This document shows positions 27,582-27,962 of a stretch of DNA of 64,000 nt, piece by piece. The position numbers and the translations under genes are program-made. The DNA is from the human T2T-CHM13v2.0 reference genome, Homo sapiens. The first letter of the stretch is position 1. Every line of letters starts with the position of its first letter. The stretch lies in assembly GCF_009914755.1 (NCBI RefSeq), contig NC_060926.1; one strand, written 5' to 3'. Under the pieces are notes generated by a model. It was not told the origin of the DNA. It saw nothing but the letters and a program-made list of their open reading frames with translations, and did not search any database.

Positions 27582-27962
27582 GGGTGTGATGGTGGGTGGA
27601 GTTGGCAAGTTATGACGACAAGATGAGGGAGCCCTGGAGTCCTGTGCACTGGTCAGCCTAGACAGCCAACTCCACCCACCATCATACCCCTCTTTTCCAG
27701 CATACAACAGAGCTCTGTGTTAAGGGCCTCAGGAGATTTCAGAGGAAGAGGGACAGGGAGGAGAAAGGGTGGGCCCTGGACCCACTCTATGAGGATCTCT
27801 TTTGTGCTCTTGGAAAAGTCTTCCAAGGAGTTCATGAAACTTTTGGGAATTTAAAACAGCACAAGTTGGTTCTTTCCTGTCCATCAGCTGTGCTCCATGC
27901 CCCACATTTCCCCTCCCCTTCCCTGTCTAGGCTGACCAGTGCACAGGACTTCAGGGCTTCCT
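27582..27962. repeat. Two interlocked inverted repeats: 27582-27606/27665-27689 (25 bp) and 27626-27665/27923-27962 (40 bp)
   Basis: Direct reverse-complement comparison: 24/25 and 38/40 Watson-Crick; all three exceptions are G-T on the plus strand. Confidence 0.95.

What the first reader, a model, noticed from the sequence alone, without database searches (positions are those of the whole stretch)
27582..27962. Interlocked inverted repeats that can mask the last 3' splice site of TUBA4B (switch/pseudoknot-like layout)
Seen: the 64-nt block 27626-27689 consists entirely of two inverted copies of nearby sequence. B (27626-27665) is the reverse complement of B' (27923-27962), which is CTGTCTAG|GCTGACCAGTGCACAGG..., the exon-4 acceptor plus the first 32 exon nt. 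A' (27665-27689) is the reverse complement of A (27582-27606). The order A-B-A'-B' makes the helices cross. Pairing is 38/40 and 24/25, and all three non-Watson-Crick positions (27586:27685, 27629:27959, 27637:27951) are G-U pairs in the sense RNA. Inference: the block arose as a double template-switch or templated insertion whose junction joins 27606 to 27923 through a shared C. In pre-mRNA, B-B' would bury the acceptor, while the earlier-forming A-A' hairpin would trap B in its loop, so the two could compete. A 40-bp duplex is also a plausible ADAR substrate. I see no equivalent in TUBA4A.
Basis: partly seen in the sequence, partly recalled or inferred. Interest (0 to 1): 0.8.

Follow-up and report, generated by a model that had tools for sequence, protein, structure and literature searches.

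The report
Template-switch inverted repeats in TUBA4B intron
A 64-base insert in the last intron of the decayed tubulin gene TUBA4B is an inverted copy of two nearby stretches, most likely a scar of a DNA-replication template switch; on paper it can fold over the last splice acceptor, but no function is shown.

Summary
B 27626-27665 is the reverse complement of B' 27923-27962 (38/40). A' 27665-27689 is the reverse complement of A 27582-27606 (24/25). All three mismatches are G:U in the sense RNA. This is far beyond chance, belongs to no repeat family and is absent from TUBA4A.

The interleaved order A-B-A'-B' is what one reverse-complement synthesis run across its own departure point gives. 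That is type '3-1-4-2' of the published four-point template-switch model (PMC5453318). Here an inner 252 nt was skipped at a 1-nt microhomology.

Paralogues show that B' is ancestral and that B later took two A>G changes. Arm divergence of 3/65 suggests an age of tens of millions of years.

In silico, the A:A' hairpin forms first. B:B' (-86 kcal/mol) wins at equilibrium and buries the acceptor. The two helices exclude each other.

TUBA4B is a decayed duplicate, and its annotated mRNA uses this acceptor. I found no evidence of selection or regulation. No other species could be examined.

Verdict: a real, old, complex template-switch scar; the splicing switch is only a possibility.

The parts
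27582..27606 (+). A: 25-nt upstream arm, G-rich. It is the source, or the partner, of A'.
   Evidence: 24/25 complementary to 27665-27689. Which of the two is older cannot be told from this genome.
27607..27625 (+). 19-nt spacer between A and the inserted block. Inferred to be ancestral intron sequence once contiguous with 27690.
   Evidence: it has no complement in the block, and an unbroken copy would have given a different sequence before A'. It is unique in the genome.
27626..27689 (+). The 64-nt templated block, rc(B') followed by rc(A) with one shared base at 27665. Inferred to be the derived insertion.
   Evidence: The outer junctions are sharp and have no microhomology.
27626..27665 (+). 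B: an inverted copy of the exon-4 acceptor and the first 32 exon bases. It carries two later A>G changes, at 27629 and 27637.
   Evidence: TUBA4A and all 14 other aligned alpha-tubulin copies that cover them have T at the positions matching 27959 (none has C at 27951 either), so B' is ancestral and B changed. B matches B' at 95% but TUBA4A at only 86%.
27665..27689 (+). A': the inverted copy or partner of A, abutting B.
27690..27922 (+). The remaining 233 nt of intron, ending in the pyrimidine tract (about 27900-27922). It was not copied into the block.
   Evidence: The BLAST homology to TUBA4A starts at 27918, 5 nt upstream of B'.
27923..27962 (+). B': the original acceptor region, made of the last 8 intron nt (AG at 27929-27930) and exon 4 nt 1-32.
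   Evidence: and the hub annotation (exon 27931-28962). It is continuous with the 94% homology to TUBA4A exon 4.

Best explanation
The block 27626-27689 is a mutational scar. During replication of an ancestral TUBA4B intron, the nascent strand left its template at 27625. It copied the opposite strand backwards from 27962 to 27923, jumped at a single shared base to 27606 and copied on to 27582. It then returned to the original template at what is now 27690. This is the '3-1-4-2' configuration of the four-point template-switch model, in which the copied fragment spans the departure and return points, so two interleaved inverted repeats arise automatically. Here the inner 252 nt were skipped, or were deleted soon after from an unstable long palindrome. 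The event is old, roughly 5-60 million years, and lies in a duplicate tubulin gene that has lost tubulin function. In the transcript the scar creates two mutually exclusive helices. The A:A' hairpin forms first during transcription. The stronger B:B' duplex would bury the acceptor AG if it ever equilibrated. The acceptor is used in the annotated mRNA, so A:A' and/or bound proteins probably keep B:B' from forming fully. Shown: the repeats, their significance, their uniqueness, the direction of copying for B, and the in-silico energetics. Inferred: the template-switch mechanism, the single-event origin, the age, and the lack of selected function.
For: Repeats and mismatches are exact. Shuffle control: score 32 against a maximum of 19 in 200 shuffles. 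The 161-nt region and the whole 830-nt intron hit only themselves in the 3.1-Gb assembly, so this is not a repeat family. B is derived from TUBA4B's own acceptor: 95% to B' against 86% to TUBA4A, and the T states of B' are ancestral in the paralogues. The two copies abut with one shared base, and the outer junctions are sharp. That makes independent origins unlikely. The four-point model describes type 3-1-4-2 as creating two inverted repeats; it made up 1% of 794 human-chimp events (PMC5453318, passages). Template switches are known to create RNA hairpins (PMC8794818, abstract). The three arm differences (3/65 = 0.046, 95% CI 0.010-0.135) speak for age and against an artefact. TUBA4B is decayed. 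The tubulin motif GGGTGSG reads GRGTGSD, the frame is lost near 28298-28346, and the exon-2 homologue at 26500-26603 is not an annotated exon. Folding: MFE -181.1 kcal/mol with z = -4.66 and B:B' formed. Duplex energies are -53.0 (A:A') and -86.2 (B:B') kcal/mol, and A:A' is present in prefix folds from 27690 to 27945.
Against: No outgroup sequence without the block could be examined, so the ancestral state is inferred, not seen. A single contiguous copied fragment, as the four-point model requires, does not fit, and an extra jump or a later deletion must be added. There is no microhomology at the two outer junctions and only 1 nt at the inner one. All 3 of 3 arm differences keep pairing as G:U in the sense RNA (neutral P about 0.04), which is what selection for structure would also give. 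At equilibrium the acceptor is fully masked, yet the annotated mRNA uses it. Something therefore counteracts B:B', and a functional reading of A:A' as a lock is not excluded.
Confidence: 0.62

Rival explanations
1. Two linked steps rather than one. An A/A' inverted repeat arose or existed first. Its hairpin (stable also as single-stranded DNA) stalled a fork at the base of the stem, and a second template switch then inserted the copy of the acceptor exactly there.
For: As DNA, 27575-27696 folds into the full 25-bp A:A' hairpin: -30.6 kcal/mol, z = -4.42, 0 of 200 shuffles as good. B ends exactly at the first base of A'. Inverted repeats are described as sites of template switching (PMC5453318 passages).
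Against: It needs two rare events at one spot. The arm divergences are alike (1/25 and 2/40), as expected for one age, though the counts are tiny.
Confidence: 0.2
2. A selected RNA switch. A:A' and B:B' are kept by selection as a kinetic device that sets how often the last TUBA4B intron is removed. It would depend on elongation speed or helicases, possibly through ADAR editing of the acceptor.
For: The helices are mutually exclusive, form in temporal order, and differ by 13.7 kcal/mol. In-silico removal of B raises the unpaired probability of the AG from 0.000 to 0.24. All 3 of 3 mismatches are G:U. The acceptor A 27929 lies in a UAG triplet paired to U 27659; that this triplet is ADAR's preferred context is recalled. 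In human genes, complementary regions are enriched over inactive splice sites and depleted at active ones, and they are enriched in A-to-I sites (PMC8052449 passages).
Against: The host gene is a decayed duplicate. No paper among 147 holding 'TUBA4B' was listed with a title or abstract on splicing structure (30 listed). No paper holds both TUBA4B and A-to-I. The G:U pattern is expected in about 4% of neutral cases, and more often with the coding-strand mutation bias. Deleting A or A' changes nothing at equilibrium. Conservation is untested.
Confidence: 0.08
3. A and B' were once contiguous. A plain 3-1-4-2 switch inserted rc(A+B') between them, and the 19 nt and 233 nt now flanking the block were inserted later or came from elsewhere.
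For: The block is exactly rc(A joined to B'). This model needs only one contiguous copied fragment, as in the published model.
Against: It needs two further insertions placed exactly at the junctions. The 233 nt has no other copy in the genome. The ancestral acceptor would have lacked a pyrimidine tract, because A is G-rich. Homology to TUBA4A runs 5 nt upstream of B', from 27918, but this point is weak in pyrimidine-rich sequence.
Confidence: 0.04
4. Double-strand-break repair by polymerase-theta end joining, with templated insertions copied from both flanks, rather than a replication-fork switch.
For: The insert is made of two templated tracts from the two flanks with 0-1 nt of microhomology. 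The link to theta-mediated joining is recalled, not read here.
Against: Simple snap-back of each end would place rc(A) next to the left end and rc(B') next to the right end, the opposite of what is seen (my inference). Tracts of 40 and 25 nt copied from up to 337 nt away are long for this pathway (recalled).
Confidence: 0.05
5. Assembly artefact, or a member of a repeat or transposon family with terminal inverted repeats.
For: None found.
Against: The arms differ at 3 positions, which an artefactual fold-back copy would not show. The region is single-copy in the assembly. The interior of the 'element' is exon-derived.
Confidence: 0.01

Closest known systems
Short-range template-switch mutations, four-point model, type '3-1-4-2' (Loytynoja & Goldman 2017, PMC5453318; passages read)
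   Same: It is a reverse-complement copy of nearby sequence. The copied stretch spans the points of departure and return, so two inverted repeats arise in the interleaved order X-Y'-X'-Y. It needs an inter-strand switch. It creates hairpin potential without selection.
   Different: The copied fragment is not contiguous: only its two ends (40 + 25 nt, one base shared) are present and the inner 252 nt are missing. There is no inverted spacer. The sources lie up to 337 nt from the insertion point. I did not see the paper's length distribution (its supplementary figure was not read).
Template switching as a source of RNA hairpins and new miRNAs (PMC8794818, abstract and outline; 10.1101/2023.04.19.537475, search listing only)
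   Same: One DNA event yields a near-perfect stem in a transcribed region.
   Different: The A:A' hairpin has a 58-nt loop and reaches only 30.8 bits against a gathering score of 74 for the best Rfam miRNA model. No RNA gene is implied.
Multi-jump replicative rearrangements (FoSTeS/MMBIR; Hastings et al. 2009, seen only as a reference; content recalled)
   Same: Several consecutive template jumps in one event, with joins at very short microhomology.
   Different: Those are described at kilobase-to-megabase scale. This event spans 381 nt and inserts 64 nt.
Long-range complementary regions in human pre-mRNA (PCCRs, PMC8052449, passages) and competing structures in ATE1 (PMC7797038, search listing and abstract start only)
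   Same: An intronic segment pairs with a splice-site region, and alternative pairings compete for one partner region.
   Different: PCCRs are defined by conservation across vertebrates, and ATE1 by mutational tests. Here the conservation is unknown, the gene is decayed and nothing has been tested. In ATE1 two elements compete for one shared element; here the two helices share no arm and exclude each other by crossing.

Membership tests
Template-switch mutation (four-point model) | A stretch explained by a reverse-complement copy of nearby sequence at high identity, with all four bases, not in a repeat, and at least 14 bp long | tested here: met
   40 nt at 95% and 25 nt at 96%. Single-copy in the genome. 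Criteria as quoted.
Template-switch mutation (four-point model) | One contiguous copied fragment (2->3) between two switches | tested here: not met
   The two copied pieces come from sources separated by 316 nt (27607-27922), of which 252 nt remain once the 64-nt block itself is set aside. An unbroken copy would give different bases on both sides of the inner junction.
Template-switch mutation (four-point model) | An allowed order of switch points (4 does not precede 1) | tested here: met
   The inferred order is 3 (27582) < 1 (27625) < 4 (27690) < 2 (27962), which is type 3-1-4-2. The ancestral state is assumed.
Template-switch mutation (four-point model) | An ancestral or outgroup sequence lacking the copy | not testable with these tools
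   No other vertebrate genome is held, and the intron has no paralogue in this genome.
FoSTeS/MMBIR-type multi-jump event | Microhomology at each junction | tested here: inconclusive
   1 nt at the inner junction (27665) and 0 nt at both outer junctions.
Conserved complementary regions (PCCR) that regulate splicing | A stable complementary pair overlapping a splice site | tested here: met
   The B:B' duplex is -86.2 kcal/mol and covers -8 to +32 of the acceptor.
Conserved complementary regions (PCCR) that regulate splicing | Both arms conserved across vertebrates, with compensatory substitutions | not testable with these tools
   No alignments are available. 'TUBA4' occurs 0 times in the main text of PMC8052449; its supplementary tables were not opened.
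H-type RNA pseudoknot | Both crossing helices present at once | not testable with these tools
   ViennaRNA does not model pseudoknots. My inference is that they cannot coexist: 0 nt between B and A', and 19 nt to cross a 40-bp helix.
miRNA precursor or other Rfam family | Score at or above the family's gathering threshold | tested here: not met
   The best match is MIR9672 at 30.8 bits against 74. All 7 matches lie far below their thresholds.
Interspersed repeat / transposon with terminal inverted repeats | Several copies in the genome | tested here: not met
   Only self-matches in 3.1 Gb. The tool warns that its counts are lower bounds.
ADAR substrate | Documented A-to-I sites in the duplex | not tested
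   No editing database is available. 0 papers hold both TUBA4B and A-to-I.

The most novel reading that the evidence does not exclude
The scar has been co-opted as a kinetic splice lock. The early A:A' hairpin closes B into a 58-nt loop and so keeps the far stronger B:B' duplex from forming, which leaves the TUBA4B terminal acceptor usable. When A:A' is opened or bypassed (slow or paused polymerase, helicases, stress), B:B' forms and buries the AG. It then also offers ADAR the acceptor adenosine 27929 in a UAG context, turning AG into IG and fixing intron retention. One template-switch event would then have delivered both a silencer and its antidote.
Probability: 0.06. Interest if true: 0.6.

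Novelty: new member of a known kind. Interest (0 to 1): 0.3.

Why it matters
It is a clean, large example of how one replication error can write a ready-made, two-state RNA structure over a splice site. The interleaved layout that looks designed is the automatic product of a known, rare class of template switch. That is a caution against reading function into crossing helices and G:U-only mismatches. If primate alignments show the block arising in one step, the locus would document a multi-jump short-range template switch that the four-point model does not cover. It would also offer a natural test of whether a 40-bp duplex over an acceptor is tolerated in vivo. The host gene is a decayed tubulin duplicate, so the biological stakes are modest.

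Tried and rejected

I looked for an internal outgroup. TUBA4A intron 3 shows no detectable homology to the TUBA4B intron: local score 13 against shuffles of 10.5 +/- 1.3, maximum 15. The intron has no other copy in the genome. The ancestral state could therefore not be seen.

A repeat or transposon origin is rejected, and so is Rfam family membership.

Gene conversion from TUBA4A could have explained the B/B' mismatches. I rejected this because all paralogues share the B' states and B' keeps the TUBA4B-specific first exon base.

The refolding barrier from ViennaRNA findpath is 58-74 kcal/mol. It is only an upper bound from nested, direct paths without pseudoknotted intermediates, so I do not use it as a rate.

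Literature: one search was badly posed (it did not require TUBA4B) and gave nothing useful. One search listed 30 of 147 TUBA4B papers, mostly lncRNA cancer-marker papers and one retracted; I read only titles and abstract starts, and none concerns this structure. Supplementary tables of the template-switch and PCCR papers, which might list this locus, were not opened.

The 3-of-3 G:U pattern was considered as evidence of selection and set aside as too weak.

Full report
**1. Is it there?**

Yes, exactly as described. The repeat finder on 27300-28200 returns two inverted pairs and nothing else. They are 27626-27665 / 27923-27962 (40 nt, 95%) and 27582-27606 / 27665-27689 (25 nt, 96%).
- Base 27665 belongs to both B and A'. 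The 64-nt block 27626-27689 is therefore rc(B') joined to rc(A) through one shared base.
- The three non-Watson-Crick positions are 27586:27685, 27629:27959 and 27637:27951. All three are G:U in the + strand RNA.
- B' is the last 8 intron bases, with the AG at 27929-27930, plus the first 32 bases of the annotated last exon (hub table).

**2. More than chance, and not a repeat**
- The best ungapped inverted-repeat score in the 901-nt region is 32. In 200 dinucleotide-preserving shuffles it was 10.7 +/- 1.4, with a maximum of 19.
- The 161 nt around the block and the whole 830-nt intron match only themselves in the 3.1-Gb assembly. The tool's counts are lower bounds.
- In the 64-kb window, one search found 53 inverted pairs within 600 nt and showed the 25 longest. 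Every shown pair longer than B:B' is at most 91% complementary. The ones printed with sequence look like Alu (my recognition), and many lie in intervals the hub lists as masked.
- TUBA4A has no inverted repeat around its homologous intron and exon (0 pairs).
- Rfam gives only sub-threshold hairpin-shaped miRNA matches to A:A', the best at 30.8 bits against a gathering score of 74.

**3. Which copy is the original?**

B' is continuous with the 951-nt, 94.4% homology of TUBA4B exon 4 to TUBA4A exon 4, which starts at 27918. B matches B' at 95% but TUBA4A at only 86%, so B was copied from TUBA4B itself.

I aligned 15 other alpha-tubulin loci of the genome. None has C at the position matching 27951. 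All that cover 27959 have T there. So the two B/B' mismatches are A>G changes on the + strand of B after (or during) copying, not changes in B'. For A against A' the direction cannot be told.

**4. How it most likely arose**

The four-point model of short template switches has three parts (PMC5453318, passages read): replication up to point 1, a reverse-complement copy from point 2 back to point 3, and a return at point 4. When the points lie in the order 3-1-4-2, the copied fragment spans the departure and return points. The model then 'creates two inverted repeats'. This type made up 1% of 794 filtered human-chimp events.

Written out, the product is X | rc(Y) rc(spacer) rc(X) | Y. That is the interleaved order A-B-A'-B' seen here. 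The layout that looks designed is the automatic outcome of one synthesis run.

The fit gives 3 = 27582, 1 = 27625, 4 = 27690 (adjacent to 1 in the inferred ancestor) and 2 = 27962. One deviation remains. An unbroken copy would be 317 nt, but only its two ends are present (40 + 25 nt sharing one base). The inner 252 nt (27607-27625 and 27690-27922) are missing. The bases on either side of the inner junction are not what an unbroken copy would give. So either the polymerase made an extra jump from 27923 to 27606 at a 1-nt microhomology, or a 317-nt inverted copy was made and its middle was soon deleted. The outer junctions show no microhomology.

This mechanism is an inference from layout. No outgroup could be examined.

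**5. Alternatives for the origin**
- (a) Two steps. As single-stranded DNA, A:A' forms the full 25-bp hairpin: -30.6 kcal/mol, z = -4.42. It could have stalled a fork exactly where B ends. This cannot be excluded; I give it about 0.2.
- (b) A and B' were once contiguous, and a plain 3-1-4-2 event was followed by two insertions. This needs a 233-nt insertion of unique sequence. It also needs an ancestral acceptor without a pyrimidine tract. In addition, the homology to TUBA4A runs 5 nt upstream of B'. Unlikely.
- (c) Break repair with templated insertions. Simple snap-back predicts the opposite order of the two pieces (my inference). Unlikely.
- (d) Artefact. The three arm differences argue against it.

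**6. Age**

Three differences in 65 compared positions give 0.046 per site (JC 0.048), with a Poisson 95% interval of 0.010-0.135. I recall a human-macaque neutral divergence of about 6-7% for about 25-30 million years. On that calibration the age is some 20 million years, with a range of roughly 5-60. This is a prediction, not a result.

**7. The host gene**

TUBA4B is a head-to-head duplicate of TUBA4A that no longer encodes a tubulin.
- The annotated 241-residue product aligns to TUBA4A residues 78-262 only.
- The glycine-rich tubulin motif GGGTGSG reads GRGTGSD. Naming this motif is recalled.
- The frame departs near 28298-28346.
- The homologue of TUBA4A exon 2 (26500-26603, 85.6% identity) is not an annotated exon (hub table).
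- Exon 4 is 94.4% identical to TUBA4A, with 100 of 100 identical in 28198-28297. Exon 3 is only 81.5% identical. This suggests gene conversion of exon 4.

**8. What the RNA would do (in silico only)**
- The minimum-energy fold of 27560-27990 contains the full B:B' helix: -181.1 kcal/mol, z = -4.66, 0 of 100 shuffles as good.
- Duplex energies are -53.0 kcal/mol for A:A' and -86.2 for B:B'.
- In prefix folds from 27500, A:A' is formed (23-25 of 25 pairs) at every end point from 27690 to 27945. At 27962 it is replaced by B:B' (38 of 40 pairs).
- Enforcing A:A' costs 13.7 kcal/mol.
- At equilibrium the unpaired probability is 0.000 for the acceptor AG and 0.005 for the last 8 intron bases.
- It rises to 0.29 and 0.35 when the block is removed in silico, and to 0.24 and 0.38 when only B is removed.
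- Removing A or A' changes nothing.
- The TUBA4A acceptor gives 0.54 and 0.75.
- Every B:B' pair crosses every A:A' pair. With 0 nt between B and A' and 19 nt between A and B, I infer that the two long helices cannot coexist as a pseudoknot, so this is an either/or pair.
- A nested-path estimate of the refolding barrier is 58-74 kcal/mol. It is only an upper bound, but it suggests that A:A', once formed, is a kinetic trap.

Since the annotated mRNA uses the 27931 acceptor, the likeliest reality is that A:A' and bound proteins keep B:B' from forming fully. The copy of A may thus have made the copy of the acceptor harmless. That is inference.

**9. Is there a sign of selection?**

Only the G:U pattern. 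Half of all transitions in one arm of a perfect helix give a sense-strand G:U. With two thirds of changes being transitions, 3 of 3 has P of about 0.04. There are no CpG sites in the arms (read). Germline mutation is biased towards the coding strand of transcribed genes (passages of 10.1101/282129). I recall from Green et al. 2003 (not read) that the bias includes an A>G excess on that strand, which raises the neutral expectation further. I treat this as no real evidence.

General knowledge that structure over splice sites goes with inactive sites, and that long duplexes attract A-to-I editing, comes from PMC8052449 (passages). That paper's main text does not mention TUBA4. No paper holds both TUBA4B and A-to-I. 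The 30 listed of 147 TUBA4B papers are mostly lncRNA cancer-marker studies, one of them retracted (listing only).

**10. Verdict**

The finding is a new, unusually large and clean member of the known class of template-switch scars, of the rare two-repeat type and with an extra jump, in a decaying gene. Interest is modest. It would rise if primate alignments showed a one-step origin followed by conservation, or if RNA data showed retention or editing tied to the duplex.

Noticed in passing
window 27918-28866 vs 8102-7153; 26949-27105 vs 8483-8327; 26500-26603 vs 8889-8786: TUBA4B exon 4 is 94.4% identical to TUBA4A exon 4, with 100 of 100 identical in 28198-28297. The exon-3 and exon-2 homologues are only 81.5% and 85.6% identical. 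This pattern suggests gene conversion between the inverted duplicates, limited to exon 4.
   Followed up: partly
window 26500-26603 and 27931-28464: TUBA4B has decayed as a tubulin. The exon-2 homologue is not an annotated exon, the glycine-rich motif GGGTGSG reads GRGTGSD, and the reading frame departs from TUBA4A near 28298-28346, giving an unrelated tail.
   Followed up: partly
window 26796-26811 and 26815-26830: A perfect 16-nt tandem duplication separated by 3 nt, lying 137 nt upstream of TUBA4B exon 3.
   Followed up: no
window 29633-29648 and 29943-29958: Perfect 16-nt direct repeats flank the masked repeat 29635-29945. They look like the target-site duplication of an Alu insertion just downstream of TUBA4B (the reading as a target-site duplication is mine).
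   Followed up: no
window 25052-25152 and 25588-25688 (also 25000-25027 / 25727-25754): An inverted pair of Alu-like elements, 101 nt at 77%, inside the TUBA4B intron upstream of exon 3. It is a second possible double-stranded RNA region in the same transcript.
   Followed up: no
window 27580-27691: The A:A' hairpin draws sub-threshold matches to several Rfam miRNA precursor models (best 30.8 bits against a gathering score of 74). This reflects hairpin shape only.
   Followed up: yes
window 27931 vs 8090; loci L008, L009: The first base of exon 4 is G in TUBA4B and in two chromosome-12 alpha-tubulin loci, but T in TUBA4A. The TUBA4A state (Ser instead of Ala at that codon) therefore looks derived.
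   Followed up: no
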